Position numbers and translations under genes: made by a program. Below the pieces are notes generated by a model. It was not told the origin of the DNA. It was given only the letters and a program-made list of their open reading frames with translations, and did no database searches. A DNA stretch of 64,000 nucleotides from Elusimicrobiota bacterium. Its GTDB lineage: Bacteria; Elusimicrobiota; Elusimicrobia; UBA1565. Numbering within the stretch: position 1 is the stretch's first letter; each line of letters starts with the position of its first letter. Below are positions 45,903 through 64,000 of the stretch, piece after piece. The stretch covers positions 19,906 through 83,905 of the forward strand of contig JBAZVI010000002.1 in assembly GCA_041660925.1 (NCBI GenBank). The letters run 5' to 3'.

Positions 45903-46042
45903 GGTAGCAGTTCCCCTCTTTTCGGATAAGGGCCCAAGGTCCCATACTTGCCCGGGTCTGCCCAAGTTACGATTGAGAGGTGCGAATAGTTCCATTGAGG
46001 GAAGCGCGGCCGGACGGGAGAAGGGATGAAAGCTGATGCTCC

Positions 46043-47190: not shown

Positions 47191-47225
47191 GTCGTCCGCG
47201 ATTCTAGCAGTTTTCGTCCGAGGAG

Positions 47226-47462
47226 CTACTCGAGTGGAAGCGAATCGATAGTGGCAGGCGGGGAGTCTAAACCGGCGAGGAAACGCGCTACGAATTTTGC
47301 AGCGATGAGCCCGGCGAGCAGGATGAGGATAAGTCGGAGTTGCGTGGCGTGGAAGCGCCGCACCTTCATGTACTTCTTGTAGACGACACCGTCGCGCGTG
47401 ACCTTCCCGATGAATTTGCGACGGTATAATACGCGTTCCCAGCGGGAAGAGGGCATAGGCAC
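47226..47462 (-). CDS. hypothetical small membrane protein (78 aa)
   Basis: ORF track only; one hydrophobic helix; lower-GC region. Confidence 0.35.
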
Positions 47463-47532
47463 ATTTCTCTGTTGTCTCTCTCCGTTTGGAGCGAGAGTCG
47501 GATGTGCGCGGAAGGACGGTGCATCCTACAAA

Positions 47533-48687: not shown

Positions 48688-48689
48688 CG

Positions 48690-49739: not shown

Positions 49740-51598
49740 GGCGACCGGGTGGGTGCTGCGGGCTGGTATGCAGGGACCAAGTCTTTCATCATGTTCCGGA
49801 TGGGCGCAGAGTCCGCAAGCGAGCACAAGCGCTTAAGTTCGCTGATCTGGTCGCGCAAGATCGAGAGGTCGGCCTCTTCGGGGACGGCGGCGAAGATGTC
49901 GGGGTGCCCGGTGTCCATGCGCACATCGTGTGGACGAAACAGCTCCTCGTACATCTTCTCTCCGGGACGCATCCCTGTGAAGACGATCTTGATGTCGCGA
50001 TCGGGTTCGAATCCCGAGAGAAGGATGAGGTTGCGTGCGACGTCCAACACTTTGACGGGTTCGCCCATGTTCAGCACGAAGATCTCCCCGCCTCTGCCCA
50101 GGAAGGCTGCATGAAGGATGAGCTGGACGGCCTCTTCCGTGGTCATGAAGTAGCGGGTCACATCAGGATGCGTGACCGTGACCGGACCTCCCTGGGCGAT
50201 CTGCTCCTTGAAGATGTTGATCGCGCTGCCGGAACTCCCCAAGACGTTGCCGAATCGGACCGATATGAACTTCGTCGAAGACGTCCCGGAGAACGCCCGG
50301 ATGATCATTTCCGCCATGCGCTTCGAGACGCCCATGACACTGGTGGGGCGGACGGCCTTGTCCGTCGATATGAAGAGGAAGCGCTCGACGCCGTGCCGGG
50401 CGCACTTCTCGGCGAGGAGATGGGTGCAGAGGGTGTTGTTCTTGACCGCTTCCTGGGGATTCGATTCCATGAGCGGGACGTGCTTATGCGCGGCGGCATG
50501 GAAGACCAGTTGTGGCCTGTGTGTGACGAAGAGGTTTTCCAGCAGGTCGGCGTCTCCGACGTCGCCCGCGATGGCGAGGCGCGTGACGACGGAGTTCATG
50601 GCGGAAAGCTCCCGGTCGATGTAGAACAAGTCGGTGTTGTGCTTCTCCAGAAGCAGGAGCTTCGAGGGACCGAATCGCATAATCTGCCTAGCGAGCTCCG
50701 AGCCGATGGTCCCCCCCGCGCCGGTCACCAGTACGGTCTTGCCCTGAAGGATGCCTCGGACCGAGGCGAGGTCGGTCTTCACAGACTTGCGAGGGAGGAG
50801 GTCGGCGAGCTCGATCTTGCGCATGCCGCGGGGCTGAGAGTTGTCCTTGCGCAGGGTTTCCTCGAGGGTGGGGACTGTCTTGAACTGGACTTTGAAGCCG
50901 TCTGAGTGGGGGCAGATTTCCATAAGACTCTTGATCAGCGGGCCGCGAGAGTGGTTCACGGCCACGACGATCTCATCGATCTGCTTCTGGGCGATGATCC
51001 TCGGCAGATCTTGACGGCAGCCGAGGATGGCGATTCCATGGATGCTCCGGTGGAGCTTGGCAGGATCGTCATCGATGAAGCCGATGACCCTGTGCGTCTT
51101 GTAGTCTCGGCGTTGCATGTCGCGCACGATGCTTTCCCCCAGGTCTCCGGCGCCGAAGATGAGCACTCTGGGTAGGCTCGAAGTGTCCTGCTGATAGCGC
51201 CATTCGCGCGTGAGCCGGATGGCGAACCGGATCGAGCCGACCAGGATGAGGGTAAGGAGCGGGTCGATGAAGAGCACCGATCTCGGGAATCGCGGGTGCT
51301 GGATGAGCATGAGCGAGGCGATGATGAAGATCTGGCTGGAGCTGACGGCCTTGAACAGGGCGTTCAAGTCCGACATGCTCGCATAGCGCCAGACGCCGGC
51401 GTAGGCTCCGAAGTACGCGAAGGCTCCGGTGCGGAGAAGGACGACGATCCCGATCGTCGACGCGCAGATGCTCAACTCATGCCCGGGCACCTGGAAGTCG
51501 AATCGGAGAAGGAATGCAAGAGCGTAGGAGACGAGGAAAGCCGAGATGTCCGCGAAGAGGACTAAGGGGCGGCTGAATGCAATGAGTCTCTTATACAT
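49736..51598 (-). CDS. membrane-anchored nucleotide-sugar 4,6-dehydratase (CapD/PglF/WbpM family)
   Basis: From ORF 49736..51652, probable ATG at 51596-51598 (MYKRLIAF...); N-terminal TM helices then SDR domain with LVTGAGGTIGSEL. Confidence 0.8.
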   Translation of the reverse strand: MYKRLIAFSRPLVLFADISAFLVSYALAFLLRFDFQVPGHELSICASTIGIVVLLRTGAFAYFGAYAGVWRYASMSDLNALFKAVSSSQIFIIASLMLIQHPRFPRSVLFIDPLLTLILVGSIRFAIRLTREWRYQQDTSSLPRVLIFGAGDLGESIVRDMQRRDYKTHRVIGFIDDDPAKLHRSIHGIAILGCRQDLPRIIAQKQIDEIVVAVNHSRGPLIKSLMEICPHSDGFKVQFKTVPTLEETLRKDNSQPRGMRKIELADLLPRKSVKTDLASVRGILQGKTVLVTGAGGTIGSELARQIMRFGPSKLLLLEKHNTDLFYIDRELSAMNSVVTRLAIAGDVGDADLLENLFVTHRPQLVFHAAAHKHVPLMESNPQEAVKNNTLCTHLLAEKCARHGVERFLFISTDKAVRPTSVMGVSKRMAEMIIRAFSGTSSTKFISVRFGNVLGSSGSAINIFKEQIAQGGPVTVTHPDVTRYFMTTEEAVQLILHAAFLGRGGEIFVLNMGEPVKVLDVARNLILLSGFEPDRDIKIVFTGMRPGEKMYEELFRPHDVRMDTGHPDIFAAVPEEADLSILRDQISELKRLCSLADSAPIRNMMKDLVPAYQPAAPTRSP

Positions 51599-51673
51599 GG
51601 TCGCAGAACTCGAGGTATCTCGGGTGCCGAGCCGTTCGGCTCGGGTGAGCATATCCGGCGGATAGAGGAGTAT

Positions 51674-53575
51674 TCACCGGGCGGTGCTGTCGACGCGGAG
51701 CAGGGTCTTCACTCCAGCCCCGGACTCCGACAGTTCCCATGCGCGCGAGAACTCCGCTAGCGGGAGGGGTTCGGAAAGCATAGATTCCGGGGAGAGTCGT
51801 GCTAGGATCTTCAGGGCCTCCTCGAAGTCTTCCCCGCTGCTTCCAACGGAGCCGATGACGGACTTGTCACTGCCGACGATGGACTCGAAATTGAAGGGGA
51901 CCTCTGCGTAGGGAAAGCCCAGGAGGAGCAGGGTGGCGCCCGCGCGGCTCTTCGATAGCGCCGAGTGCAATGCGCCGACATCTCCTGTCGCCTCGATGAG
52001 GATGTCGAAATCCGCAAGGGCTGCGAGGTCTGTCGATACGGCGATTCCCGCCTCCTTGAGGACGCTTAGGCGTCCTTCGTTGCGGTCGAAGGTCGTCACG
52101 GATTCGCCGCGCAGTGACAGGACTTTCGCGGCGAGATGCCCGATGGGGCCGGCGCCGATGACTGCATGGCGAAGTACTCCACGAGCGCCGTGTGTCGAAG
52201 CATCGAGGCGACGCAGGGCCTTCAAGACAACCGCCGTGGGCTCGCATAGACAGGCCGCTCGAAGCGAAACCTCTGGAGGGATGCGATGGACGAATCGCCC
52301 CGGCACGACGACGTATTCGGAATACCCGCCGTCGCGTCCCATCACACCCACTTCAGCCCTTTGAGAACAGCCAATGGCGTTCCCGCGCTGGCAGGGTCCG
52401 CAATCGCCGCAGCCCTGGATGCACTCAGCGACGACGAGGTCTCCTTCCGCGACGTTCTCGACGCGCGGCCCCGCTGCGACCACGGTGCCGGAGAACTCAT
52501 GCCCAGGGACGATGGGATAACGGGCAAGGCCGGTCCTATAGTATCCGAGGGAGCCGTGGTAGATGTCGAGGTCAGTTCCGCAGACGCCCTCGAAGGCGAC
52601 GCGGATGAGCACGTCTCCGGGGCGGATCTCTGGCAGTTCGATGTCGACGTACGCCGCGTCACGCGGCCCGCGGACGACGACGGCCCGCGAACGACGGTCG
52701 AAGAAAAGGCGCTCGCGCTTGAGGGGGTTGTCCATCGCGGCGCCGTCGAGGACTCCTGCGCAGGTCCCGCGGAGCTTCTCCCAGCGAAAACGAAGGATCT
52801 CCGGGGTCTTGGTGAGGAGTTTCCCTTCTCTCGCTGCCCTGCGAAGGTCGCCCGCAGTACGGCGGGCTTCCTGGACCAACGCGACCGGCAGATCCCGGCG
52901 GTTCAAGACGCCTATCCACTTGGCGGCCTGCCCTTCGCGATAGAATCTGCGACGTACCTGGCTCCAGTTCTCGTCATGGATATGACGAATGTCGGCCTTG
53001 GCGGCGTAGACGACGACGAAGCCTTGCTCCATCCAGTGCTTCGCCCATTCGATGTCCTCGAGCCCCGGCAGGGTCTCGTCGAAGGGGTGTTTCTCCCAGA
53101 GGTCCCGGCGGATCGCCGAGTTCGCGTTGTTGGCGAAGAAGTCCGGAGGTGTCAGGATTCGGTCTGCGACGCCGAACGTGCGCTGGAAGTCGAGCTGCTC
53201 GGAAAACTTCGAGCGATCGTCGCCGGATTGCCGCCCGTAGACCATCGCGGTGCGCCCGTCGCGGAGGGGCTTTATCAGTTCTTCAAGCCAATGCATGCCC
53301 GCGGGAACGGTGTGTGCGGAGACGATGGCGAGGAAGCGCCCCTCGGACGCTTGGATCCCCACGTTGAGGGAGTGCCCGAAGGTGAAGTCGTGACGGGTCA
53401 GGCGAACGAGGCGATGCGTCCGTTCCGAGGCGATTTGCCGGGTGTGGTCGAAGGAGCCGGAATCCACGACGATGATCTCAAAGTCTCTGTAGCTTTGCGC
53501 GGCAAGGCCGTCGAGCAGGACCGGCAGATGCCGCTCTTCGTTGAATGCGCGGATGATGATCGATGTCTCAGGCAT
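51674..53575 (-). CDS. fusion protein: N-terminal family-2 glycosyltransferase domain + C-terminal zinc-dependent alcohol dehydrogenase (MDR) domain
   Basis: 633-aa continuous ORF; GT2-like start (IIIRAFNEE, IIVVDSGS) then MDR-like region (RVAFEGVCGTDL, GHEFSGTV, Rossmann GAGPIGHLA). Confidence 0.7.
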   Translation of the reverse strand: MPETSIIIRAFNEERHLPVLLDGLAAQSYRDFEIIVVDSGSFDHTRQIASERTHRLVRLTRHDFTFGHSLNVGIQASEGRFLAIVSAHTVPAGMHWLEELIKPLRDGRTAMVYGRQSGDDRSKFSEQLDFQRTFGVADRILTPPDFFANNANSAIRRDLWEKHPFDETLPGLEDIEWAKHWMEQGFVVVYAAKADIRHIHDENWSQVRRRFYREGQAAKWIGVLNRRDLPVALVQEARRTAGDLRRAAREGKLLTKTPEILRFRWEKLRGTCAGVLDGAAMDNPLKRERLFFDRRSRAVVVRGPRDAAYVDIELPEIRPGDVLIRVAFEGVCGTDLDIYHGSLGYYRTGLARYPIVPGHEFSGTVVAAGPRVENVAEGDLVVAECIQGCGDCGPCQRGNAIGCSQRAEVGVMGRDGGYSEYVVVPGRFVHRIPPEVSLRAACLCEPTAVVLKALRRLDASTHGARGVLRHAVIGAGPIGHLAAKVLSLRGESVTTFDRNEGRLSVLKEAGIAVSTDLAALADFDILIEATGDVGALHSALSKSRAGATLLLLGFPYAEVPFNFESIVGSDKSVIGSVGSSGEDFEEALKILARLSPESMLSEPLPLAEFSRAWELSESGAGVKTLLRVDSTAR

Positions 53576-54527
53576 CGGTGGGCCCGACGGCGGCCGGAGC
53601 GAGTACGCGGAGGAGGTTCAGGATCGTATTCTCGTGGACCCTTGCCGCGGAGGATGGACTGCTGTTCGCGTTGTGCGGGGAAAGCAGGCAGTTGCTGTGG
53701 CGGCGCAACGGGCTGTCCGCCGGAAGCGGTTCTCGCTCGTAGACATCGAGTGCGGCTCCGGCAAGTCGTCTCTCGTCGAGCGCTTGCGCCAGCGCGGACT
53801 CCACGACGACCGGGCCTCTCGAAGTGTTGATGAGGTACCCCGAAGAGCGCATCCTCTTCAAGGCCGCGGCGTCGATGAGACTGCGGCTGGTCTCGTTGAG
53901 GTCGGGGTGGAGGGAGACGAAGTCCGACTCTTCGAGGAGTCGTTCCCGGTTCACAATCGACATCCCGACGGCGTCCAGATAACCTCTTTCCGGGATGACA
54001 GGGTCGCAGCCGAGGATGCGCATGCCGAATGCCGCCGCGCGGCGGCCTACTGCCCGGCCGATGTTTCCCACCCCGATGATTCCCAAGGTCTTTTCCTTGA
54101 GTGCGAAGAGTTGGGGCTTCTCCCAAAGGCCATTGCGCATATCCTGATCCATGCGGGCGAGACCGCGCGCAAAGAGGAGCATGTATCCAAGGACAGTGTC
54201 TGCGACGGGCTCAGTGAAAGCATCGGGTGTGTTTCTAACGGGGATTCCGCGAGCCGCCGCCGCGACCTTGTCGATCGAATCGATGCCTGTTCCCCATTTC
54301 GAGATGACCTTGAGTCGCGGAGCGGCGTCCAGGACCTTTGCGGTGATCTGGTCGTCTCCGCAGATGATTCCGTCGACGTCCTTGATCAGCTCGAGAAGCT
54401 CTCCTTCCGTCAGGCGCTCGCGGACTCTGGCGATGACAAGCTCGCAACCGGCCTCCTCGAGGCGCCTACGGTAGATGTCGAGGACGGGCATGACGTACGG
54501 CGCGGAGATTAAGACGCGAGACTTCAT
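53568..54527 (-). CDS. D-isomer-specific 2-hydroxyacid dehydrogenase (phosphoglycerate dehydrogenase-like)
   Basis: 319 aa; NAD-binding GIIGVGNIGRAVG and 2-hydroxyacid dehydrogenase-like catalytic region. Confidence 0.8.
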   Translation of the reverse strand: MKSRVLISAPYVMPVLDIYRRRLEEAGCELVIARVRERLTEGELLELIKDVDGIICGDDQITAKVLDAAPRLKVISKWGTGIDSIDKVAAAARGIPVRNTPDAFTEPVADTVLGYMLLFARGLARMDQDMRNGLWEKPQLFALKEKTLGIIGVGNIGRAVGRRAAAFGMRILGCDPVIPERGYLDAVGMSIVNRERLLEESDFVSLHPDLNETSRSLIDAAALKRMRSSGYLINTSRGPVVVESALAQALDERRLAGAALDVYEREPLPADSPLRRHSNCLLSPHNANSSPSSAARVHENTILNLLRVLAPAAVGPTDA

Positions 54528-55330
54528 CGGAATGCCTCTCGACGGTACTGCGCGAAGGCGGGGTCGCTGCGCATCAGTCGTTCCGCTCGACGCAGGTCGG
54601 ACGGCGTGTCAACCGACTGTGTCCGTTCCTTTGTGCGAATCATGCGGACGGGGATCCCGTGTCCCACGAAGCGGAGCATGTCGATGGATTCTGCCTTTTC
54701 GAGGGCGGTCGGCTCGAGTCTTTCGAAAGCAAGGAGCGCATCCCGGCGGAATGGGATGACGCATACCTGCTTGAAGACCCGCAGATCGCGGAAGTTCACG
54801 CGCGCCGTCGTCGGGATGGGCTCCCTGGAGAAGTAGAGGGCGTCCCCCCTCTCGTCGGTCACGACCTTGATCGTGTTGGGGTCTGAGAAGTCGCGCTCGT
54901 CATCGATGGGGGCCATCAGGTTTACGCATTGGACCTTCGGGTCCTCCCGCATGGGGAGGAGCGCTTGCTCCAGCATCCGCGTGGTGATGAGCGGCTCGTC
55001 GCCCTGGACCATAAGGATGATCGTCTCCTTGCGCGACCGCGCTATCTCCGCGACGCGGTCGGTGGCTCGCTGGTGGGAGGGAGAGGTCATCACGGCCTGG
55101 GCACCGAAGGCGGCGGCGGCGCGGGCGATCTCCTTGTCGCAGGTCGCGATGAGGACTCTGGAGATCATCGGACAGCGCCGGACTCTCCTCCATACATGCT
55201 CGATCATCGGCAGGCCGGCGATGCGGGCGAGCGGCTTCCCCGGGAAGCGGGTCGATGCCATCCTCGCGGGGATGACGCAGAGGACCTCCGCATCCGTGCG
55301 GTTCAACTCAGCTCGACGGAGACCTGGCAT
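54524..55330 (-). CDS. sugar-acid cytidylyltransferase (CMP-Kdo / CMP-nonulosonate synthetase family)
   Basis: From ORF 54524..55540, probable ATG at 55328-55330; motif VIPARMASTRFPGKPLA typical of the KdsB/NeuA family. Confidence 0.75.
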   Translation of the reverse strand: MPGLRRAELNRTDAEVLCVIPARMASTRFPGKPLARIAGLPMIEHVWRRVRRCPMISRVLIATCDKEIARAAAAFGAQAVMTSPSHQRATDRVAEIARSRKETIILMVQGDEPLITTRMLEQALLPMREDPKVQCVNLMAPIDDERDFSDPNTIKVVTDERGDALYFSREPIPTTARVNFRDLRVFKQVCVIPFRRDALLAFERLEPTALEKAESIDMLRFVGHGIPVRMIRTKERTQSVDTPSDLRRAERLMRSDPAFAQYRREAFR

Positions 55331-56247
55331 TCGAGTGTGCCTCCCGGGAGAAGTTCCGCGCAAGTGCCGTTCTTGAGCGCCGCGCCCAGATCCTTCGGCA
55401 TGTTCGTGCAAGGTTCGAGGACCACGGTGTAAAGGTCCCGCCAGCCTCCGAAGGTCATGAATAGCCAAGTGAAGGGAAATACGTGAAGAGGAAAGTGCAG
55501 GCGGATGCGGCGTCCCGTACGCGAATCCCTGACTCCGCACCAGCCCGCTGGGAGGTCTCGGACGCAGAGGAAATCGCGGTGCTTATGCTCGGGAGAGGGC
55601 AGCTCTTCGAGGTTTACTCGGCGCCCTTCTGGGCCTGGGGCGAGCGGCCAAGTGAAACCCCCGCCAGAGACGATTCGAGTCCCGAAGCCTTCTTCGATGG
55701 GGAGGACAGTCCCTCCAGGGAGCTCTAGACGATGATGAGGTGTCACCGCGATGGGGAGGTGCTGTTTGAAGAGAAAGCGCAAGGGTTTGTCATCGAGATT
55801 GCGGATCCGGTAGCGGATGTCCATCCGTGCCGCTTCCGGGTCCATGGAGACGGTCTTCTCGCAGTAGGCGGGGACGGAGGCTGTCCTCAGGGTCATCTGA
55901 GCGCAACGCTCTGTCTCCTCGCAATCCCATGCCCGCGACCACCATTCCCCATGATCCGGTAATCTTCGGCCCTGAAACGAGCATTCCGCGTCATTCGGGA
56001 AAAGCTCTTCCCAGCCGCCGGACCAATGGTCGTCGTATCCGGCGCTTTCGTGCGGGCGCTGCAGGCCGACGTGCGGGTTCCGCCAGATCCATTCGGTTCC
56101 CGTGGCCTTGTCGACCAAACTCCAAATCTTCGCGCCGAAATCCGGAAGGATGTCGGCGTGCATTCGGGGGTTTTCAAGGCGAATGACACGGTGAGCGGCG
56201 CTGCCGCAGTGGCCTTTCGTGCGCACCGTCATCTTCCCGTTTGGCAT
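55303..56247 (-). CDS. hypothetical protein
   Basis: From ORF 55303..56355, start uncertain (ATG 56245-56247 or 56230-56232); no family recognised. Confidence 0.5.
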   Translation of the reverse strand: MPNGKMTVRTKGHCGSAAHRVIRLENPRMHADILPDFGAKIWSLVDKATGTEWIWRNPHVGLQRPHESAGYDDHWSGGWEELFPNDAECSFQGRRLPDHGEWWSRAWDCEETERCAQMTLRTASVPAYCEKTVSMDPEAARMDIRYRIRNLDDKPLRFLFKQHLPIAVTPHHRLELPGGTVLPIEEGFGTRIVSGGGFTWPLAPGPEGRRVNLEELPSPEHKHRDFLCVRDLPAGWCGVRDSRTGRRIRLHFPLHVFPFTWLFMTFGGWRDLYTVVLEPCTNMPKDLGAALKNGTCAELLPGGTLECQVSVELS

Positions 56248-56269
56248 GGAGGGATTCGCTCTAGCGTAG

Positions 56270-57298
56270 TCAGCCCTTCGCCGGGCTCTCCGCAGTGCAG
56301 ATCTCGTGATGGAGTGCGACATATGTCGGGGGGCACCAATGAGGGAGCGTGCCATCCCCCCCGCGGACGTCCGTCTCGAACACCGGCGTGGTCTTCCCGA
56401 ATCGCGTTAGAAGCGTGTTCTTGGCGGCGACGTCCTCGAACTTGTCAAGGATGACGAACTTGTAGCCATTGTAATCGTCTGCCTTCTTGAAATCGAGATA
56501 CGCGACCCCATGCGCTTCACAAAGCCTCCTGTACGCGGAGGCGATCTCGACCCGTTTGTCCCGGTAGTATTCACGGAGTTCAGGGCCCGTCATCAGCATG
56601 TGAATCAGGCAGGCAGTCAGTTCATTCGCACGGAGATTCAGTCCGTATGAGAGCGTCATGTCATGCTTGTCGTAGATTAGGAAGCGTCGGACCCAGGAAT
56701 AGACGTCCGCTCGCCGTGTGGAAACGAGGCCTCCCTCTCCCGATGGGAGGATCTTCGTAGCATAGAATGAGAACGCGAGGTCGGCATACGCCGATCCGAG
56801 AACTCCCTCGAGGTAGTGTGCGTGGGCGGCATCCACGATGAGAGGTATTCGGTTCTTCTCGCAGTAGGATTCGATCTCGCGGTATGAGGGTGATAGGAAT
56901 CCTCCGATCACCGAGTAGACGACTACGGCGGCGCGTGGGTCCGGGAGGGCAGCGACCGTCGAGGCAAGAGATTCGGGAGTCATCGCCAGGAAGTCTTTTG
57001 TGGCGGAATCGGCGACGAGGACCTCCATCCCCAACAGCTTCGGGACCGTGTAGAGCGCTCGCATCGTGTTCGATTGGATGATGACGTGAGTCTTCGAGCA
57101 GGCATATTTGTAGTATGCCAACAGGCAGAAAATCGCGGCCCCTCCAGAACAAACGGGGACCGAGTCCTTCCCCGGAAGGAACTCTCGGGAGGATTCCTGA
57201 TAGAAGTGTCCTTCCGCGACCTTGCCTGTCTTAAAAAGCTCCTCGGCCTTGCGCAGGTATGAGGCCACAAGACAATCGGGGAATGAGACGATATTCAT
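56270..57298 (-). CDS. DegT/DnrJ/EryC1/StrS-family PLP-dependent sugar aminotransferase
   Basis: From ORF 56270..57370, ATG at 57296-57298 preceded by GGGAGGA; PLP-lysine region SFYATKILPSGEGG. Confidence 0.8.
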   Translation of the reverse strand: MNIVSFPDCLVASYLRKAEELFKTGKVAEGHFYQESSREFLPGKDSVPVCSGGAAIFCLLAYYKYACSKTHVIIQSNTMRALYTVPKLLGMEVLVADSATKDFLAMTPESLASTVAALPDPRAAVVVYSVIGGFLSPSYREIESYCEKNRIPLIVDAAHAHYLEGVLGSAYADLAFSFYATKILPSGEGGLVSTRRADVYSWVRRFLIYDKHDMTLSYGLNLRANELTACLIHMLMTGPELREYYRDKRVEIASAYRRLCEAHGVAYLDFKKADDYNGYKFVILDKFEDVAAKNTLLTRFGKTTPVFETDVRGGDGTLPHWCPPTYVALHHEICTAESPAKG

Positions 57299-57432
57299 CG
57301 GTCCTCCCGCCTCGCCGGATGCTCCATGCTGTTCGTGAAATCGTACAAAATTGCCTCTTCGATGAGGCAATCCCGTCCGACTCAGTTTGATGCAGCTATA
57401 AGGTAAGAGAGAACGGGCGGCATGCCGTCAAC

Positions 57433-58659
57433 TCACGCGCCGGGTGCGTGGGAGTTCGACGGCATCGAGAGGATACTCGGATGTCCCGATTCAAGACATC
57501 GTCCTGCCAAGGTCTCGCAATACAATGCACCCATCTTCTCGACATATCGGGCCATGCTGAACTTCTCGCTCCAGGTCCGGTACCCGGCTTCCCGCAAGGC
57601 GGCGAGAGAGGCTGACGGCGCGGCGAAGATTCGAAGAAGGCGATCCGCCAGGACAGAGGGATCGTTCGGCGGGATGAGGAACCCGTTGGTCTCGTCCTGG
57701 ATTATTTCCGGGACTCCCCCTACGGCAGTGGCTACGACAAGTTTCTTCAGACACAGCGCCTCGAGGATGCTGTTCGGGATGCCTTCGCTTTCCGATGGGA
57801 GTGCGACGACGTCCGCGGTCTTGAGCGCGGCGGCGACATCCTCGATGTGACCCTTGAAGTGTATCCAATCGCGGACTCCCTCAGCGACGGCCATGCGGCA
57901 GAGAGCGTCGAAGTAGAGGCCTCCCCCGCCGTCCGTGGCGGATTCGTGGGAACCATAAACGACGACCGACAGCGGGGGTCCGCGTCGTCGGATCAATGCC
58001 AGCGCGCGCAGGAGAGTCTCGAAGCCCTTCCGTACGGTGATGCGGCTGACGACCGCTAATATCGGAGGGAGAGGTTCTCCGTCGGCGCGGACGATGTCTG
58101 GCTCCGCCAGAGGAGGACGCCCGTCGTAGATGCACGCGATCTTCGTCGGGGAAATCCTGGAACGCTGGATGAGCTCATCTCGGAGGTATTCGCCGTTCAC
58201 CGCGTAGGCGTCCACATGCGTCTGGGTGAGACGGTCGAGCTGGTGGTATGCCCACAACACGGACGCTGGCCGGTCGGACCAGTCGAGGCTTGTGTGCATG
58301 CGGAAGATATGACGCACCCCCGGGGAACTCCGCCTGACCAAGCGGCAGACGATGCTCTCGCGAAAGGCGTTCGATTGGAGGAGACGGATGCCTTCGCGGC
58401 GGGTGAGTTCGAGGATGCGTGCCGCCGCTGGCCACGGGCGCCGGAACATCAGTTCGGGTATCACATGCACGCCGAGGCCCGTCTCGGTGAACTTCCGGGC
58501 TAGAGGCCCATCCCTTCCCGTCAGGAGGAGTGGGCGACAGTGCAGACGGTCGCGCAGATGGATGGCCCAGCGGTGGACCTGCCCTTCGATTCCTCCCAGC
58601 GAGGAGGCCCGGCGCACCAGCCCAATGGGGCATCCCTCGGGCAGTTCAGATAGAGTCAT
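57433..58659 (-). CDS. glycosyltransferase family 4 (GT-B fold)
   Basis: Trimmed from ORF 57433..59169 to ATG at 58657-58659 (MTLSELPEG...); C-terminal motif LPSESEGIPNSILEAL typical of GT4. Confidence 0.8.
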   Translation of the reverse strand: MTLSELPEGCPIGLVRRASSLGGIEGQVHRWAIHLRDRLHCRPLLLTGRDGPLARKFTETGLGVHVIPELMFRRPWPAAARILELTRREGIRLLQSNAFRESIVCRLVRRSSPGVRHIFRMHTSLDWSDRPASVLWAYHQLDRLTQTHVDAYAVNGEYLRDELIQRSRISPTKIACIYDGRPPLAEPDIVRADGEPLPPILAVVSRITVRKGFETLLRALALIRRRGPPLSVVVYGSHESATDGGGGLYFDALCRMAVAEGVRDWIHFKGHIEDVAAALKTADVVALPSESEGIPNSILEALCLKKLVVATAVGGVPEIIQDETNGFLIPPNDPSVLADRLLRIFAAPSASLAALREAGYRTWSEKFSMARYVEKMGALYCETLAGRCLESGHPSILSMPSNSHAPGA

Positions 58660-59384
58660 GACGATGGCGGACGGATGAATGCAAGATAATGGGTGCACAG
58701 GAACGGCACGCGACTCAAGAGCGCACAGACGGCCGGCGAGTACGGGGCAAGGGCTCGCGTGATGGGCGGGGCCAGGGTGATCGGAATCAGTTCTATAGTG
58801 GAATCGGGGAAGAGGCTGAAGATCTCGGCGCGAGAAATCCCGTGGACATCGCGGTTGAAAGGGTTGTCGATGCGGAAGTCGTACCATACGATCGTCCCAT
58901 TTGGAGCAAGGACGCGGACCATCTCCCGAGCAATTTCGGCCTTTAATGCGGAGTCCGCGATCGAGGTGAACATCGTGCTTTGGAGTACGATGTCGAATGC
59001 TGCGTCGGGGAGTCCAGTCCGGGCGGCGTTCCTGCAGAGGATGCGGACGCTCCCGCCGGTGCGGTAGAGGGCCTCGCGGGCGCGCGCTTCGATGAGTTCG
59101 ATGCCGATGAGATTCTCCGGCCGCACGCCCCATCGAATGAACTCGAGCAGCCAGGTTCCTTCGCCGCACCCGAGCTCGAGAACGTGCATCCCGGGGAATT
59201 CGGGCAGGCCGATGCGCTGCAACGCATGCAGGACGGCTTCGTTTCGTTCACGGGTCATGAGGATGTGCGCCGGATTGTCGTCGGAATAGCGGGCGTGTAC
59301 ATCGGCTTTCTCTCGGCGCTTATACGACGCGCGTATCCGCGCTTCTTCGTCCTCGAAGTCGCGGGAAGGCTCTCGGATCATCAT
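58656..59384 (-). CDS. class I SAM-dependent methyltransferase
   Basis: 242 aa; SAM-binding motif VLELGCGEG; stop overlaps GT4 start (ATGA). Confidence 0.75.
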   Translation of the reverse strand: MMIREPSRDFEDEEARIRASYKRREKADVHARYSDDNPAHILMTRERNEAVLHALQRIGLPEFPGMHVLELGCGEGTWLLEFIRWGVRPENLIGIELIEARAREALYRTGGSVRILCRNAARTGLPDAAFDIVLQSTMFTSIADSALKAEIAREMVRVLAPNGTIVWYDFRIDNPFNRDVHGISRAEIFSLFPDSTIELIPITLAPPITRALAPYSPAVCALLSRVPFLCTHYLAFIRPPSS

Positions 59385-60745
59385 GTCTTCGCTGGCGGGA
59401 ACTCTCCCGTCTTCAAAAGGGTACGGTAACGCTTCTGGGATTCCCCCCCCAGCCCGAAGAAGAAGAATTGCGCGAGTTCCGACAGGGCCGCCGCCTCCTT
59501 CTGCGGAGCCGCGCGCGCTTTGTTCCAGAGTCCCAGGAGCCCCCTTGCATCCTCGAATTCGTCCGGATGGTCCGCCATGCTGTAATAGCCCGCATCCTTG
59601 TATCGGAAGACGGGTACGGCGCGGACGAGCATCTCATTGTAAACGGTCGATGTCCGTGCGACGCAGAAATCGATTCGAGAGGCGAAGTCGTCCATCGCCA
59701 GATCGAGCGACCCCATCCCGACGCAACGATGCAGCACCTCAGCCTCCGGATAATCTGCGCGCACGTTCAAGGGGTGCATCTTGACGACATATCGGAGATC
59801 GAGAACCTCCGCGACCTTCTCCGCGATGGAGAGCATCCGGCGGTTGCTGCCTTTGTAGATCTCCTGCTCGAAAGCGATGCCGAAGACCCCGGAGGGCGGT
59901 CGTGCGGCTCGCGCGGCCTTCACCGCCGCATGGTCGAAATCCAGGTAGCGGGGATGTCCCATGATGAACAACCGCTCGGCGGGGATGCGCTTGCACAGCT
60001 CACGGCGAGTGAACTCTCCCCAGATCAGAAACGCATCCGAGACGAAAGACTCGTAATTAATCATGTTGATGTGTGGGTCGCTCTCATCGTAGACGATGAT
60101 CTGACCATGCTGTAGCGCGGCGGTGCGGCATCCCTGGGCTTTCGCCACTTGCATCAGGACATTCGGCCATGGGAGGGCGTCGCTGAAGGCGAGGGCAAGG
60201 CGGTAGCGCTTGAAAGATATCGCGCGGGGAAGAGTGGCGGCGAACTTCACATGCTGTCCAAGGAGGCATGACAGGTAGAGGCGTTGGTCGAGACGAAGTT
60301 CGGCCGGAAGCGTGAGGGCGGTCGGGAGCAGCTGTGTGAGGAGATAGTGCAGTCCCGCTGGGCTTGCGGATGCCTCCCAGCCCCGAAGGTCGAGGACGTC
60401 GGCATCGTCGGAGAGGGCCTGTATCTTGCGGAAGGTCTCCTCGAGATCGGAGCGAAGGAATTCCCCGTGAACGAGGATGACGCGGGGGCTCTTCGACGGC
60501 GTCCGTCTCAGCCAACGGAGCTTGGGAGAAAACGCCAGGAGACGGAGCAGGCCCGAGCAGAGGAAGAGAATCGTCCTGAGTGCTCCCCATTCCGCATGTA
60601 TCGTCGTCCAGATGTGATATGAGAGGGCAGCGCCATACGCGACGCCGGCGTCGACCTGTCGATCCAGTATGGTGCGGACCTTGCGGTAGAGGAGATATTC
60701 TCGACGGGAATCCCTGCAGGGTGCCGCGTGCTCGTAGCGTCTCAT
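59381..60745 (-). CDS. hypothetical glycan-biosynthesis protein
   Basis: Trimmed from ORF 59381..61168 to ATG at 60743-60745 (MRRYEHAAP...); resembles capsule polysaccharide biosynthesis proteins only loosely. Confidence 0.55.
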   Translation of the reverse strand: MRRYEHAAPCRDSRREYLLYRKVRTILDRQVDAGVAYGAALSYHIWTTIHAEWGALRTILFLCSGLLRLLAFSPKLRWLRRTPSKSPRVILVHGEFLRSDLEETFRKIQALSDDADVLDLRGWEASASPAGLHYLLTQLLPTALTLPAELRLDQRLYLSCLLGQHVKFAATLPRAISFKRYRLALAFSDALPWPNVLMQVAKAQGCRTAALQHGQIIVYDESDPHINMINYESFVSDAFLIWGEFTRRELCKRIPAERLFIMGHPRYLDFDHAAVKAARAARPPSGVFGIAFEQEIYKGSNRRMLSIAEKVAEVLDLRYVVKMHPLNVRADYPEAEVLHRCVGMGSLDLAMDDFASRIDFCVARTSTVYNEMLVRAVPVFRYKDAGYYSMADHPDEFEDARGLLGLWNKARAAPQKEAAALSELAQFFFFGLGGESQKRYRTLLKTGEFPPAKT

Positions 60746-61830
60746 CGGGCGGATGCCCGCGCGTATGGTTTCTCTGGGGGGACGGAGGGCAGCGCCTTGG
60801 CGAGGACGACGAAAACCTGGTCCCCTCTCCCCTCCTCGTTGAGCTGGCGCGCATTCGACCGGAATCTTCGCAGTTCCTCCTTCGTGAAGATGCTGTTGCG
60901 CGGAGACTTTATGTGGGATCGATCGGACATCAGGGGTATGTCTCGGCGATATTGCTCGCTGCCTATGAATTGGAACTGCGTCGAGTCCCATCCCCACCTC
61001 TCGATGCGGAGCCCTGCGTGGGACGCCAACAGCTCGAGAGCCTTCCGCGTGAAGATGAAGCAGTGGCGCGGTGCGTCGAGCTGCACCCAGGACGGGCCAT
61101 AGATCTCCCAACAGTAGTTGGGGAGGATGGGTGTTCGAATTAGGATCTTCCCTTCGTCGGCAAGACACCTCGAGAGCGCAATCAGGGTCGTCTCTGGCTC
61201 CGGCACATGCTCGAGGGAATGGTTCATCAGGATGAGATCGAACCGCTCTGCGGATTCCGGGAGAGCGCTCCTGCGGAGCACGAGTCTGCCGTCATCGCTG
61301 GAGGCCCCAGTCGGCGGCAGGAATGGGTCGATGCCGCGCAGATGCGAGAACCCATCTCGGTAGAGGGACTGGAGTAGTCCACCTCCCCCGCATCCGACGT
61401 CGAGGATGCGGGAGCTGCGGCCTGCACCGGCCCACTCGAGCCACCGATAATGCTCGGGGTAGCCTTGCCAGGCGATGATCAACGCCCCCAGCATCCGCTT
61501 GGGTAGGGATCCGTCACCAAGACAGAAGCATGAACGGCATCGGCGGGCGAATGTCTCGAAGAAGCCCGGAGGATGCAGTGGGCCCATCGGAGTGGAGTCG
61601 AAGGAGTAGTATTCCGCGGGGTATGCGATTCCTGGACGGAGTTGAATCTCCGCGCGCTGCATCGTCCCGCAGCCTCCGCAGAGGGCATACGTGTAAGGTT
61701 CTCTTCCTCCGAAGAACATTTCATGGATTGAGAACGATTCGTTCCCGGTGGCATTCCCGCAAATCCGGCATGGAAAGGCATCCTGCGCGACGTCTGCTCC
61801 CGGAGTAGCGTTCGTTCCGGAAGGCTTCAT
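60742..61830 (-). CDS. class I SAM-dependent methyltransferase with N-terminal Cys4 zinc-ribbon
   Basis: From ORF 60742..61902, ATG at 61828-61830; CRICGN...CGGCG zinc-ribbon-like pair then LDVGCGGGGLL SAM-binding motif. Confidence 0.7.
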   Translation of the reverse strand: MKPSGTNATPGADVAQDAFPCRICGNATGNESFSIHEMFFGGREPYTYALCGGCGTMQRAEIQLRPGIAYPAEYYSFDSTPMGPLHPPGFFETFARRCRSCFCLGDGSLPKRMLGALIIAWQGYPEHYRWLEWAGAGRSSRILDVGCGGGGLLQSLYRDGFSHLRGIDPFLPPTGASSDDGRLVLRRSALPESAERFDLILMNHSLEHVPEPETTLIALSRCLADEGKILIRTPILPNYCWEIYGPSWVQLDAPRHCFIFTRKALELLASHAGLRIERWGWDSTQFQFIGSEQYRRDIPLMSDRSHIKSPRNSIFTKEELRRFRSNARQLNEEGRGDQVFVVLAKALPSVPPEKPYARASAR

Positions 61831-62792
61831 AGGTTGTCGAGTGCATCCCAATCCGGGTCGTGATGGTATCCCGGATCGAGCGGTGAGATGAAGGCGGCGC
61901 ATCTGCGGAACAACCGGCTCAGTCGTTCGCTTCTGGGGAGGCCGGCGGGTGGGAGACTGCCCGATGCGCGCAGGATCCGTCTCATATGCTCGGTTTTAGT
62001 CGCCGGGAGCCGCTGCTCACTCTCGGCCTGACGGGTCAACAGGAAGGCGAAATCCCAGTAGCGGTATGCGAGGTAGCACGCGAAGGCGCGTAGGATCTTT
62101 AATGGGTTCGACGCGAACCGCTTCAGCACGACTTCCGGCGGGAGGAAATAGAGGGCGTCGACCTCCGTCAGTTGCCCGGCGCTGCGGAGATTCGCCGGGA
62201 GGTCCGCGCGGGTCCAGTAATGCCGACGAAGATCGATGAGTTGAAGTCCGTGTGAGGTCAGGCGCTCGTGGATCTCTCCGAACGAGCATCCGCCTCCATA
62301 GATGGGCGCCAACCGAGCTTCGCTCTCGACGCCGATGATGTTGGTGAGGGTGCGTGAGGCGCCCTCCAGGACAGCGGACTCATGTCCTTGGACGTCTAAC
62401 TTCATGAAATCCAGGTCTTCACGTCCAATGAGATTCAGCTGTCTGTCGAGGTTGTCTCCAGTGAGATCGATGGTGTTGACGATTTCATAACGCTCCGGGG
62501 CATGGAAGAGGCGGAGGAAGGGGGAATGCGGCTCGTGAAGCGAGGAGACTTGCTGCTTGCGGCATTGGAAGAGTCGAACATTTCCTGAAGCGCGGGTCAG
62601 CGCCACCCTCAGGATATGCGAATCGTCTCCATCCGCGTGCGGAAGCGATGCGCGGGAGTCCGGTTCAACGAGAATCGCATGCAGACAGCTGGTGAGGTCC
62701 CCCCATCGCGGGTGCAGACCTCCAGATGCGCCGATGTCGGCGATGTTGAGTACGGTCCCGCGGAGGAGGTCGTTCATTTCCATGGAGCACAT
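61827..62792 (-). CDS. FkbM-family methyltransferase
   Basis: 321 aa; NIADIGASGG motif near N-terminus typical of FkbM-type methyltransferases. Confidence 0.7.
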   Translation of the reverse strand: MCSMEMNDLLRGTVLNIADIGASGGLHPRWGDLTSCLHAILVEPDSRASLPHADGDDSHILRVALTRASGNVRLFQCRKQQVSSLHEPHSPFLRLFHAPERYEIVNTIDLTGDNLDRQLNLIGREDLDFMKLDVQGHESAVLEGASRTLTNIIGVESEARLAPIYGGGCSFGEIHERLTSHGLQLIDLRRHYWTRADLPANLRSAGQLTEVDALYFLPPEVVLKRFASNPLKILRAFACYLAYRYWDFAFLLTRQAESEQRLPATKTEHMRRILRASGSLPPAGLPRSERLSRLFRRCAAFISPLDPGYHHDPDWDALDNL

Positions 62793-62840
62793 TCAGTAAT
62801 GTCCCGAAATCATTTTGAAGGGAAGTCTTGTCGCCGGATG

Positions 62841-63905
62841 CTAAATGAAATGACGCGTATGGACGGAGTTGACGTCGCAGAAAACTCTGTTGAACGAGGT
62901 TATCCGGCATACGCTGCAGCCGGATTGGTTCTCCGCATGGAGAAGCTTGCGGGTCGCGCTCCTCCGAATGTCTGAGTGCCAGATGTCTTCGAATGAGGAC
63001 GTCCGGAGGTTGCCGAGTGTGATCGGGTCATGACGACGCTTTTCACACAGGACGACGTCCCCGTCGGCATGAATGATGCATGCGAGTGAATGTGCGACGC
63101 AGGGCAGATGATCGTTACTTGCGATCAGACGCTCATTGATCGTCAGGAGCGGCCGGATTCGCGAGATGTCTGAAAATGCGATGAGTGCCTTCTTGAGGTC
63201 GAGGAGGTTCGCGGTCGACGGGAGGAGTTCTGGGGTCTCCTCAATGGGTCGGAAGTAGATGTAATCGACGCCGATGCGGTCGAGCACGACGAGGAGCTCC
63301 GAGATCGCCGCGATGTTCCTGTTGGTCAGGACGTACCCGACGCCGACGTGGGTCTTCTGAGGGTCCCGGGCGGAGGCGAGCCGGCCGAGATTCGTGAGGA
63401 CCTGGTCGAACATGTCGGCGCCCTTTTCGACTAGGAACTCCTTTCTGCTGCCGGCATCGAGCGAGAAGCGGATCCAGTCGAACTGGCCGGCGAATTGAGA
63501 GACGTCCTTGACACCGTTGGTCAACATCCCGAGATGGAGACCTTGGGTCGCCGCATGCGCGAGAAGCTCCAGGAAATCAGGGTGCAGTGTGGGCTCTCCG
63601 CCGCCTTCAATCGTGACCCCGACGTTGTTCTTGGCGCAATATGTGAACAGCCTGAGCAAGTCCTCCTTGCGTTGAGAGGTCTGGTTGTCTCGGATCCGTC
63701 GGTCTGTGCACCAGGAGCAGTTGAGGTTGCAAACGTTGGTGAGATGCAGCTCGATGCTGATGGGAGGGAGCGAATCGTAGTCTGCGGTGCGGTTGTAGAC
63801 ATCCAGGATGGTCTGAACCTTTTTGGGGTTTAAGAGAAGCTTGAGTTTGTTGTATTCAAAATCGCTCCAGAAGTTCATGCCACCACCTTGTCGCTTGAAG
63901 GGCAT
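62841..63905 (-). CDS. radical SAM protein with C-terminal Cys-rich (SPASM-like) region
   Basis: 354 aa; CxxxCxxC motif CNLNCSWC, glycine-rich TIEGGGEPTL, C-terminal cysteines (CVAHSLAC, CSVC); start may be the internal Met (MNFWSDF...). Confidence 0.75.
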   Translation of the reverse strand: MPFKRQGGGMNFWSDFEYNKLKLLLNPKKVQTILDVYNRTADYDSLPPISIELHLTNVCNLNCSWCTDRRIRDNQTSQRKEDLLRLFTYCAKNNVGVTIEGGGEPTLHPDFLELLAHAATQGLHLGMLTNGVKDVSQFAGQFDWIRFSLDAGSRKEFLVEKGADMFDQVLTNLGRLASARDPQKTHVGVGYVLTNRNIAAISELLVVLDRIGVDYIYFRPIEETPELLPSTANLLDLKKALIAFSDISRIRPLLTINERLIASNDHLPCVAHSLACIIHADGDVVLCEKRRHDPITLGNLRTSSFEDIWHSDIRRSATRKLLHAENQSGCSVCRITSFNRVFCDVNSVHTRHFI

Positions 63906-64000
63906 CGAGAGTAGAAGACGCTAGGCGTTCTCATGGGAGTCCTTGGGCGCGTGGTCATGTCGTTGTCCTGCTGGAAAGATTCCAAAGGAGGAGCTCCTTC

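What the first reader, a model, noticed from the sequence alone, without database searches (positions are those of the whole stretch)
58656..63905. Radical SAM/SPASM-like enzyme and three different methyltransferases at the distal end of the glycan locus
A radical SAM protein with extra C-terminal cysteines (more typical of peptide-modifying SPASM enzymes) sits beside FkbM-type, zinc-ribbon-containing and plain class I methyltransferases and an unassigned 454-residue protein. This predicts unusual, heavily methylated or radical-modified sugar chemistry, or a non-glycan product.
Basis: inference. Interest (0 to 1): 0.5.

Follow-up and report, generated by a model that had tools for sequence, protein, structure and literature searches.

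The report
Sugar-modifying radical SAM enzyme in glycan locus
The flagged genes are real and lie in the middle of a large cell-surface sugar-polymer gene cluster; the radical SAM enzyme is not a peptide modifier but belongs to an uncharacterised, widely conserved family that elsewhere always pairs with a sugar aminotransferase, which suggests an oxygen-free route to amino sugars.

Summary
Observation confirmed. On the minus strand lie a radical SAM protein (62841-63878), an FkbM methyltransferase, a Cys4-ribbon class I methyltransferase, an unassigned 454-aa protein and a plain class I methyltransferase. The last four, plus a GT4 glycosyltransferase, are joined by ATGA stop/start overlaps.

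Corrections:
- The locus does not end here. An identical metagenome contig shows 10 more glycan genes upstream, including a B12-binding radical SAM and another methyltransferase.
- No precursor peptide gene fits beside the radical SAM gene.
- The C-terminal domain hits Pfam SPASM but has only four conserved Cys, enough for one auxiliary cluster. It is therefore twitch-type, and its only significant solved match is BtrN.

The protein belongs to a tight family (48-58% identity across phyla, named only "radical SAM protein"). In 29 of 30 genome loci this family sits next to a DegT-type PLP aminotransferase, often followed by one particular methyltransferase family. None of the window's methyltransferases, nor the 454-aa protein, co-occur with it elsewhere.

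The window lacks that usual partner. It does carry a divergent DegT (56270-57298) whose own family normally follows an FAD oxidase, which is absent here.

Best reading (inferred): the radical SAM enzyme makes a sugar carbonyl anaerobically, a DegT aminates it, and the methyltransferases decorate the glycan independently. The 454-aa protein has a GT-B transferase fold.

The parts
62841..63878 (-). Radical SAM enzyme with a twitch-type (abridged SPASM) C-terminal domain, 345 aa. CNLNCSWC cluster motif at C50/C54/C57. Auxiliary-cluster Cys at C260, C278, C321 and C324.
   Evidence: Pfam Radical_SAM plus SPASM. No NCBIfam family reaches its cut-off. Tight family at 48-58% identity with 4 invariant C-terminal Cys. 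AF2 model pLDDT 84; fold neighbours are SuiB, DesII, BlsE, anSME and BtrN. The C-terminal 101 aa match only BtrN (E 6e-4).
61827..62792 (-). FkbM-family SAM methyltransferase, 321 aa.
   Evidence: Pfam PF05050 at 38.4 bits against a cut-off of 22.7. NCBIfam TIGR01444 at 31.7 bits is below its 37.7 cut-off. Not found near radical SAM homologs elsewhere.
60742..61830 (-). Class I methyltransferase (Methyltransf_23) with an N-terminal CxxC...CxxC ribbon, 362 aa from the ATG that overlaps the FkbM stop.
   Evidence: Pfam E 2.3e-23. The sequence FPCRICGN...ALCGGCGT and the ATGA overlap were read directly.
59381..60745 (-). Unassigned 454-aa protein with a GT-B fold; probably a nucleotide-sugar-dependent transferase. 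Invariant TxQHG and HP motifs.
58656..59384 (-). Plain class I SAM methyltransferase, 242 aa.
   Evidence: Pfam Methyltransf_25/11/23. ATGA overlaps on both sides.
57433..58659 (-). GT4 glycosyltransferase, 408 aa, last gene of the ATGA-coupled block.
   Evidence: Pfam Glycos_transf_1 E 3.8e-31; start at the ATGA overlap.
56270..57298 (-). Divergent DegT/DnrJ/EryC1 PLP enzyme, 342 aa, with the PLP lysine kept (SFYATK). Candidate aminotransferase partner of the radical SAM enzyme in this locus.
   Evidence: Pfam DegT at 70.7 bits. The lysine aligns with that of solved aminotransferases. It has its own family at 50-57% identity, which elsewhere directly follows a DAO-type FAD oxidoreductase. No DAO is present in the window or L001. 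It scores only 105 bits against the usual radical-SAM-partner DegT subfamily, whose true members score above 570.
53568..56247 (-). Downstream genes of the same operon: a DUF5107/mutarotase-like protein (55303-56247), a KdsB-like cytidylyltransferase (54524-55330) and a D-2-hydroxyacid dehydrogenase (53568-54527).
   Evidence: Pfam and NCBIfam (KdsB subfamily NF009905 at 299 bits against a cut-off of 255); gene calls on L001.

Best explanation
The region is the middle of a long, single-strand cell-surface glycan operon. The operon sits in a lower-GC island (about 60% against about 72%) of an Elusimicrobiota genome.

The radical SAM protein is a twitch-type enzyme with one SAM cluster and one four-Cys auxiliary cluster, and it acts on a sugar, not a peptide.

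Proposed mechanism (inferred):
1. Reductive cleavage of SAM gives a 5'-deoxyadenosyl radical, which abstracts a ring hydrogen from a probably nucleotide-activated sugar.
2. The substrate radical is turned into a ketone. This happens either by loss of an electron to the auxiliary cluster (BtrN-like dehydrogenation, favoured) or by loss of a neighbouring hydroxyl (AprD4-like diol dehydration).
3. A DegT-family PLP aminotransferase converts the carbonyl to an amine. Together the two steps give an oxygen- and NAD-independent route to an amino sugar, probably a 4-amino sugar, with no 4,6-dehydratase needed.

In other genomes the aminotransferase is a dedicated subfamily encoded next door. In this window that partner is missing. 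The likely stand-in is the divergent DegT at 56270-57298, whose own usual oxidant, an FAD oxidase, is also missing.

The FkbM, Cys-ribbon and plain class I methyltransferases, the GT-B 454-aa protein and the GT4 enzyme form a translationally coupled block. This block adds and methylates sugars independently of the radical SAM step.

Shown: gene content, family membership, Cys pattern, conserved neighbourhoods and folds. Inferred: substrate, reaction type and the pairing with DegT342.
For: Glycan context:
- Neighbouring genes are GT2, GT4, Bac_transf, a PglF-like dehydratase, DegT and KdsB-like.

Twitch type:
- Four invariant C-terminal Cys in the pattern C-x12-G-x4-C ... CxxC, with no second cluster motif.
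- The C-terminal domain matches only BtrN in the PDB, and the first two auxiliary-cluster Cys align.
- BtrN is a sugar-type dehydrogenase whose product is transaminated by a DegT-family enzyme (PMC9012708).

Conserved pairing:
- 29 of 30 distinct genome loci carry a tight DegT subfamily (56-98% pairwise identity) next to the radical SAM gene.
- The same pairing was seen in 5 loci found by exact-protein look-up, two of them not in the genome set.
- That DegT is closest to 4-aminotransferases: PseC, LegC and DesI.
- A WecF-like (Fuc4NAc-transferase-like) GT directly adjoins the cassette in 22 of 30 loci, usually just upstream of the radical SAM gene.
- Only 7 of 30 loci have any extended-SDR dehydratase or epimerase within 10 kb, so the radical SAM enzyme is the likely source of the carbonyl.

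Partner-swap logic:
- The DegT342 family normally follows a DAO oxidase, and none is present here.

Not a RiPP system:
- No room for a peptide gene.
Against: - No biochemical datum exists for any family member, and literature searches found none.
- The radical SAM gene and DegT342 are separated by five genes and a 134-nt gap.
- DegT342 is no closer to the usual partner subfamily (105 bits) than the generic DegT399 beyond the window end (124 bits). The pairing is therefore only circumstantial, and two dehydrogenases nearby (2-hydroxyacid DH, Zn-ADH fusion) could serve DegT342 instead.
- Whole-protein fold neighbours do not discriminate. SuiB, DesII and BlsE score better than BtrN.
- A 4,6-dehydratase could be encoded elsewhere in those genomes.
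- The window itself has a PglF-like dehydratase, so the DesI/DesII order is not excluded here.
Confidence: 0.45

Rival explanations
1. DesI/DesII-type deoxygenation. A DegT enzyme first aminates a 4-keto-6-deoxy sugar made by a 4,6-dehydratase. The radical SAM enzyme then removes the amine by radical deamination, giving a keto-deoxy sugar. The net result is a deoxy sugar rather than an amino sugar.
For: - DesII is among the best fold matches (8hzv, E 3e-14).
- The partner DegT subfamily and DegT342 both have weak DesI-model hits.
- The window has a PglF-like 4,6-dehydratase.
Against: - 23 of 30 loci with the pair have no extended-SDR dehydratase within 10 kb.
- From my own knowledge, not tested here: DesII has no cysteine-ligated auxiliary cluster, whereas this family keeps four invariant C-terminal Cys.
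- The cassette has no obvious follow-up reductase or second transaminase. It carries a methyltransferase instead.
Confidence: 0.15
2. Radical epimerase or other redox-neutral rearrangement of a sugar (NeoN/HygY-like), with the DegT acting on a different step.
For: From my own knowledge, not tested here: twitch-type radical SAM enzymes include sugar epimerases. Fold and sequence data do not assign a reaction type.
Against: - All four conserved C-terminal Cys are needed for the predicted auxiliary cluster. That leaves no invariant free Cys to return a hydrogen atom.
- The near-universal adjacency to one dedicated DegT subfamily argues for a coupled carbonyl-to-amine step.
Confidence: 0.15
3. The radical SAM enzyme works with the neighbouring methyltransferases or with the B12-binding radical SAM enzyme on unusual methylation chemistry.
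For: In the window it lies between a B12-binding radical SAM gene and an FkbM gene, with four methyltransferase genes nearby. A class I methyltransferase is also a frequent third member of the cassette elsewhere.
Against: - None of the window's methyltransferases is related to the cassette methyltransferase family, with no hit at E<=1.
- None co-occurs with the family in 30 loci.
- A related B12 radical SAM gene appears in only the two distinct Riflebacteria loci, several kb away and on the other strand.
- The enzyme has no B12 domain.
Confidence: 0.1
4. RiPP or protein maturase: a SPASM-type enzyme that modifies a peptide or a protein, and is unrelated to the glycan.
For: Pfam SPASM hit. The best fold matches include the RiPP maturases SuiB and SkfB and the protein maturase anSME.
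Against: - No precursor-sized free ORF in the 76-nt and 48-nt flanking gaps.
- Only four of the seven or more SPASM Cys are conserved.
- No peptidase, transporter or RRE domain was found.
- Every one of more than 30 homolog loci is a glycan locus.
Confidence: 0.02

Closest known systems
BtrN (radical SAM 2-deoxy-scyllo-inosamine dehydrogenase, butirosin pathway) together with its DegT-family aminotransferase BtrS/BtrR
   Same: - CX3CX2C SAM cluster plus a C-terminal twitch domain with one four-Cys auxiliary cluster.
- The C-terminal domain's only significant PDB sequence match is BtrN.
- Same genetic logic: a radical SAM oxidant working with a DegT/DnrJ/EryC1 transaminase.
- Oxygen-independent carbonyl formation on a carbohydrate-like ring (PMC9012708).
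   Different: - About 95 residues longer, with a conserved N-terminal extension (NYWDEFEYSKLKLL).
- Whole-protein similarity is marginal (E about 7e-4 to 1e-3; TM 0.4-0.6).
- Found in cell-surface glycan loci of mostly anaerobic lineages, not in aminoglycoside clusters.
- The substrate is presumably a nucleotide sugar, and the reaction is untested.
DesII with DesI (desosamine C4 deoxygenation)
   Same: A radical SAM enzyme coupled to a DegT-family PLP enzyme acting on a nucleotide sugar. DesII is a strong structural neighbour.
   Different: - This family has four invariant auxiliary-cluster Cys.
- Most loci lack the 4,6-dehydratase the DesI/DesII route needs.
- The order of the steps is probably reversed.
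BlsE (blasticidin S) and AprD4 (apramycin): radical SAM enzymes acting on sugar rings
   Same: - BlsE is the best match when normalised on both proteins (TM 0.67/0.70) and the second-best PDB sequence hit.
- Both convert a sugar hydroxyl position to a carbonyl by radical chemistry. AprD4 is described as a diol dehydratase in PMC13598754. BlsE is described as a decarboxylase in PMC3715490; I recall a later reassignment as a diol dehydratase feeding a PLP transaminase, which I could not verify here.
   Different: About 19% identity. NCBIfam BlsE model scores 34 bits against a cut-off of 400. AprD4 is a B12-domain-type enzyme. Both belong to antibiotic pathways, not envelope glycan loci.
SPASM-domain peptide maturases (SuiB, SkfB, PqqE) and the protein maturase anSME
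   Same: Pfam SPASM domain hit and top Foldseek hits.
   Different: Only one auxiliary cluster's worth of Cys. No precursor peptide, no RRE domain, and a glycan context.

Membership tests
Radical SAM superfamily | CX3CX2C motif binding the SAM-cleaving [4Fe-4S] cluster within a partial TIM barrel | tested here: met
   C50-x3-C54-x2-C57 is invariant in 14 homologs. Pfam PF04055 E 2.8e-15. The AF2 model has alternating beta/alpha elements.
SPASM-domain radical SAM enzymes (two auxiliary clusters) | C-terminal seven-Cys pattern binding two auxiliary Fe-S clusters | tested here: not met
   Only C260, C278, C321 and C324 are invariant. C267 and C334 vary, and there is no CX2CX5CX3C. The Pfam SPASM HMM still matches, because twitch is a truncated SPASM domain (PMC9012708).
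SPASM-domain radical SAM enzymes (RiPP maturases) | Adjacent precursor peptide gene | tested here: not met
   The flanking gaps are 76 and 48 nt. All small ORFs overlap the large genes.
Twitch-domain radical SAM enzymes (BtrN-like) | Truncated SPASM domain with a single auxiliary [4Fe-4S] cluster ligated by Cys | tested here: met
   At sequence level: four invariant Cys with BtrN-like spacing (18/43/3 residues, against 19/44/3 for BtrN as I recall its Cys positions). BtrN is the only significant PDB match to the C-terminal 101 aa, and the first two Cys align. Actual cluster binding cannot be tested here.
Twitch-domain radical SAM enzymes (BtrN-like) | Two-electron oxidation of a secondary alcohol to a ketone | not testable with these tools
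   Inferred only, from the conserved DegT neighbour and the scarcity of 4,6-dehydratases nearby.
Uncharacterised 345-350-aa radical SAM family of glycan loci (this work) | Full-length similarity of about 48-58% with the invariant N-terminal NxW..FEY motif and PCxAHS / CEKRR motifs | tested here: met
   407 hits. The best 120 all cover 100% of the query at 48-58% identity. Invariant columns are listed.
Uncharacterised 345-350-aa radical SAM family of glycan loci (this work) | Adjacent dedicated DegT subfamily gene (about 343-350 aa, more than 570 bits to the subfamily HMM) | tested here: not met
   Present in 29 of 30 other loci and in L047 and L048. In the window the next gene is FkbM. DegT342 scores 105 bits and DegT399 scores 124 bits.
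DesII-type radical SAM deaminase | Works after DesI on a 4-amino-4,6-dideoxy sugar made through a 4,6-dehydratase | tested here: inconclusive
   23 of 30 loci lack an extended SDR within 10 kb, but the window has a PglF-like dehydratase and such genes may lie elsewhere. NCBIfam has no qualifying hit.
FkbM-family methyltransferases | Match to the FkbM methyltransferase domain | tested here: met
   Pfam PF05050 at 38.4 bits against a cut-off of 22.7. NCBIfam TIGR01444 at 31.7 bits is below its 37.7 cut-off.
GT-B fold nucleotide-sugar transferases/epimerases (454-aa protein) | Two Rossmann-like domains, with conserved His/HP residues in the cleft | tested here: met

The most novel reading that the evidence does not exclude
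The twitch radical SAM family and its DegT neighbour, often followed by a dedicated methyltransferase and adjoined by a WecF-like glycosyltransferase, form an unrecognised module. The module installs a (methyl)amino group on a sugar without oxygen, NAD or a 4,6-dehydratase, for the surface glycans of anaerobes. Carriers include many Lachnospiraceae, among them several from gut-type metagenome collections, plus Spirochaetes and Riflebacteria. In this Elusimicrobiota locus the module has been taken apart. The radical SAM enzyme has been re-paired with a DegT that in other lineages, such as Myxococcota, is served by an FAD oxidase. That would be a natural experiment showing the two oxidants are interchangeable.
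Probability: 0.3. Interest if true: 0.65.

Novelty: new variant of a known kind. Interest (0 to 1): 0.45.

Why it matters
Radical SAM enzymes known to act on sugars come almost entirely from antibiotic pathways, such as BtrN, DesII, AprD4 and BlsE.

This family has more than 400 members and is conserved at about 50% identity across at least five bacterial lineages. It is embedded in cell-envelope glycan loci and always sits beside an aminotransferase. It would extend radical sugar chemistry to primary surface structures, including those of abundant Lachnospiraceae, and could explain how strict anaerobes make certain amino sugars.

For this window, the result also corrects the annotation logic. 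The methyltransferases and the radical SAM enzyme are neighbours, but they are not a conserved functional unit.

Tried and rejected
- Exact-protein look-up with the 354-aa start failed. The 345-aa start worked.
- The word-indexed homolog search for the 454-aa protein found only itself. The full HMMER scan was needed.
- Profile search of the 454-aa family against PDB sequences gave only a marginal UDP-GlcNAc 2-epimerase hit.
- Pfam and NCBIfam on 50 relatives gave only faint hits.
- Fetching genomic contexts for the 454-aa family failed because no stretch is conserved enough. The idea that it is a CMP-ulosonic-acid transferase working with the KdsB-like gene therefore stays untested and is not claimed.
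- I first took DegT342 to be the displaced ortholog of the usual radical SAM partner, since it has the same length and the AHAH and SFYATK motifs. I rejected this: it scores at the generic-DegT level against the partner HMM and has its own family with a different usual neighbour.
- Rfam found no riboswitch, cobalamin or SAM, in the window or L001.
- Three literature searches found no paper on this family.
- The reported reassignment of BlsE as a dehydratase could not be verified in the held library.
Full report
**What is there**

ORF listing and Pfam scans confirm the five genes on the minus strand:
- A radical SAM protein with a SPASM-model hit: Radical_SAM E 2.8e-15, SPASM E 2.9e-11.
- An FkbM-type methyltransferase (E 1.8e-9).
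- A Methyltransf_23 protein whose N-terminus carries CxxC...CxxC (FPCRICGN...ALCGGCGT).
- A protein with no Pfam or NCBIfam match.
- A plain class I methyltransferase.

Direct reading of the junctions shows ATGA stop/start overlaps linking FkbM to MT23, MT23 to the 454-aa protein, the 454-aa protein to MT242, and MT242 to GT4. These five genes therefore form one translationally coupled block. The overlaps also fix the starts at 362, 454, 242 and 408 aa.

The radical SAM gene most likely starts at 63878, giving 345 aa. That product is the one on record, and it matches the N-termini of its homologs.

**Setting**

The first 45 kb of the window are about 72% GC and hold housekeeping genes: yidC, rpmH, recO, glyQ and glyS. 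From about 45 kb to the end the GC content drops to about 60%. In that stretch almost every assigned gene on the minus strand is a glycan gene:
- acyltransferase_3
- PglF-like dehydratase
- a GT2/Zn-ADH fusion
- 2-hydroxyacid dehydrogenase
- KdsB-like cytidylyltransferase
- DUF5107-like protein
- a divergent DegT
- GT4

NCBI names the identical radical SAM protein as coming from an Elusimicrobiota MAG.

A public contig with identical sequence (L001) extends 10 kb past the window end. Still on the same strand, it adds:
- two GT2 genes
- a standard DegT (399 aa)
- a Bac_transf initiating transferase
- a 423-aa unknown
- an ArnE-like small membrane protein, a GT2 and a DUF6798 protein
- a class I methyltransferase
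- a B12-binding radical SAM protein directly upstream of the flagged radical SAM gene

The finding is therefore mid-locus, not at a distal end. The locus holds two radical SAM genes and four methyltransferase genes.

**Not a RiPP system**

The gaps around the radical SAM gene are 76 and 48 nt, and no small ORF lies free of the large genes. No Rfam element is present.

**What kind of radical SAM enzyme**

All 59 NCBIfam hits are far below their cut-offs. The homolog search found 407 proteins. The best 120 all cover the full length at 48-58% identity and are 345-369 aa long. They come from Spirochaetes, Riflebacteria, Butyrivibrio, Lachnospiraceae, Ruminococcus and Anaeroplasmataceae, and all are named only "radical SAM protein".

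In a 14-sequence alignment the invariant Cys fall into two groups: C50/C54/C57 and four C-terminal Cys, C260, C278, C321 and C324. The C-terminal pattern is C-x12-G-x4-C ... CxxC. The window protein's other Cys (C81, C267, C334) are not conserved. This amounts to one auxiliary cluster, the twitch variant of SPASM (definition in PMC9012708).

The C-terminal 101 residues searched alone match only BtrN in the PDB (E 6e-4), with C260 and C278 aligned to BtrN cluster ligands.

The AF2 model (pLDDT 84) resembles SuiB, DesII, BlsE, SkfB, anSME, PqqE and BtrN. That places it in the SPASM/twitch structural class but does not fix the reaction.

**Comparative genomics**

Thirty distinct genome loci with a full-length family member were fetched, and others came from exact-protein look-ups.

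1. In 29 of the 30, a 343-350-aa DegT/DnrJ/EryC1 protein lies next to the radical SAM gene, nearly always directly downstream. The exception is a gammaproteobacterial locus, L032. These DegT proteins form a tight subfamily at 56-98% pairwise identity and score above 570 bits against their own HMM.
2. In 17 of the 30, and in L048, a class I methyltransferase of one particular family is part of the same cassette, usually directly after the DegT. In 19 of 30 a 160-aa protein follows. In 22 of 30 a roughly 490-aa protein with weak WecF (Fuc4NAc transferase) similarity directly adjoins the cassette, usually just upstream of the radical SAM gene.
3. The partner DegT is most similar to 4-aminotransferases: PseC, LegC and DesI.
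4. Only 7 of 30 loci have any extended-SDR dehydratase or epimerase within 10 kb.
5. None of the window's FkbM, MT23, 454-aa, MT242, GT4, DUF5107 or 2-hydroxyacid dehydrogenase proteins has a counterpart in any of these loci. A KdsB-like ORF occurs in one locus, L022. The window's methyltransferases do not match the cassette methyltransferase HMM even at E<=1.

**The window is an exception**

Its radical SAM gene is followed by FkbM rather than by the dedicated DegT. Neither DegT342 (105 bits) nor DegT399 (124 bits) belongs to the partner subfamily.

DegT342 keeps the PLP lysine and has its own family at 50-57% identity, found for example in Labilithrix and Polyangiaceae. In five of six loci examined, members of that family directly follow a DAO-type FAD oxidoreductase (the exception is). 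No DAO homolog exists in the window or in L001.

This locus therefore holds an oxidant-type enzyme without its usual transaminase, and a transaminase without its usual oxidant. The simplest reading is that they work together, but that is circumstantial.

**Mechanism proposed**

By analogy with BtrN and its DegT-family transaminase (PMC9012708; PMC13598754), the steps are:
1. Hydrogen abstraction from a sugar carbon by the 5'-deoxyadenosyl radical.
2. Conversion of the substrate radical to a ketone, by electron transfer to the auxiliary cluster or alternatively by radical diol dehydration as in AprD4.
3. PLP-dependent transamination.

The rivals are DesII-type deamination, epimerisation, a role in methylation chemistry, and peptide maturation. 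Each is weighed in the rivals section.

**The 454-aa protein**

It has no close relatives but 771 distant ones. Invariant residues include H213 (in TxQHG) and H324-P325.

I call it a probable nucleotide-sugar-dependent transferase of an undescribed family. Its donor is unknown.

**Verdict**

The "peptide-type SPASM", "non-glycan product" and "distal end" parts of the interpretation do not hold, while "unusual glycan chemistry" does.

The most interesting content is at family level. The conserved arrangement of a radical SAM enzyme, a DegT and often a methyltransferase in surface-glycan loci is uncharacterised, and this window holds a rearranged copy of it.

Noticed in passing
L001:8485-9924 (just beyond window position 64000, same strand as the finding): A 479-aa B12-binding radical SAM protein lies directly upstream of the flagged gene (76-nt gap), preceded by a 233-aa class I methyltransferase. 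It reaches no NCBIfam cut-off; the best weak hits are ApyD, BchE, PhpK, HpnJ and AprD4. It could be a C-methyltransferase or another sugar-radical enzyme.
   Followed up: partly
L001:4944-7758: Three adjacent genes encode an ArnE/ArnF-like 128-aa membrane protein, an ArnC/GtrB-like 255-aa GT2 and a 555-aa DUF6798 membrane protein. Together they look like a three-part system that adds a sugar from a polyprenyl-phosphate carrier on the outer face of the membrane.
   Followed up: no
window 45000-64000 versus 1-45000: GC content falls from about 72% to about 60% over the glycan locus. This fits a horizontally exchanged, variable surface-polysaccharide island.
   Followed up: partly
window about 28000-32000: Cumulative GC skew peaks and the skew changes sign near 30 kb, beside rpmH and yidC. 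This gene pair often flanks the replication origin, so it may be the oriC region or a strand switch.
   Followed up: no
window 51674-53575 (-): A single 633-aa ORF fuses an N-terminal GT2 glycosyltransferase domain to a C-terminal zinc alcohol-dehydrogenase domain, which is an unusual architecture.
   Followed up: no
window 53568-56247 (-): A KdsB-subfamily cytidylyltransferase paralog (299 bits, above its cut-off) sits between a D-2-hydroxyacid dehydrogenase and a DUF5107/mutarotase-like protein. This hints at a CMP-activated acidic sugar or acid substituent. No KdsA, KdsC or KdsD gene lies nearby.
   Followed up: no
L041, L043, L044, L045, L046 (around position 10001 in each): The 330-342-aa DegT family to which window DegT342 belongs is directly preceded by a DAO-type FAD oxidoreductase. 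A GT2/GT21-type glycosyltransferase is usually adjacent, and VTT/DedA and YdjC genes are sometimes present. This looks like an uncharacterised oxidase-transaminase module, possibly for aminating a glycolipid or glycan.
   Followed up: partly
L010:8466-13273 and equivalent positions in about 17 other Lachnospiraceae loci: A conserved five-gene cassette runs in the order: WecF-like 490-aa GT, radical SAM, DegT, 221-aa methyltransferase, 160-aa Rossmann-like protein with a weak DUF6305 hit. Cultured carriers include Lachnospiraceae bacterium M18-1 and MD308.
   Followed up: partly
L046:1094-7589: A metagenome locus with a DegT342-family gene also carries two B12-binding radical SAM genes (one is 30% identical to the window-adjacent one), three methyltransferases and a 45%-identical Bac_transf. 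It is a second heavily methylated glycan locus of similar design, but it uses DAO instead of the twitch radical SAM enzyme.
   Followed up: partly
window 60742-61902 (-): A public gene call starts this methyltransferase at an internal Met (306 aa), which removes the Cys4 ribbon. The ATGA overlap with the FkbM stop supports the 362-aa form.
   Followed up: yes
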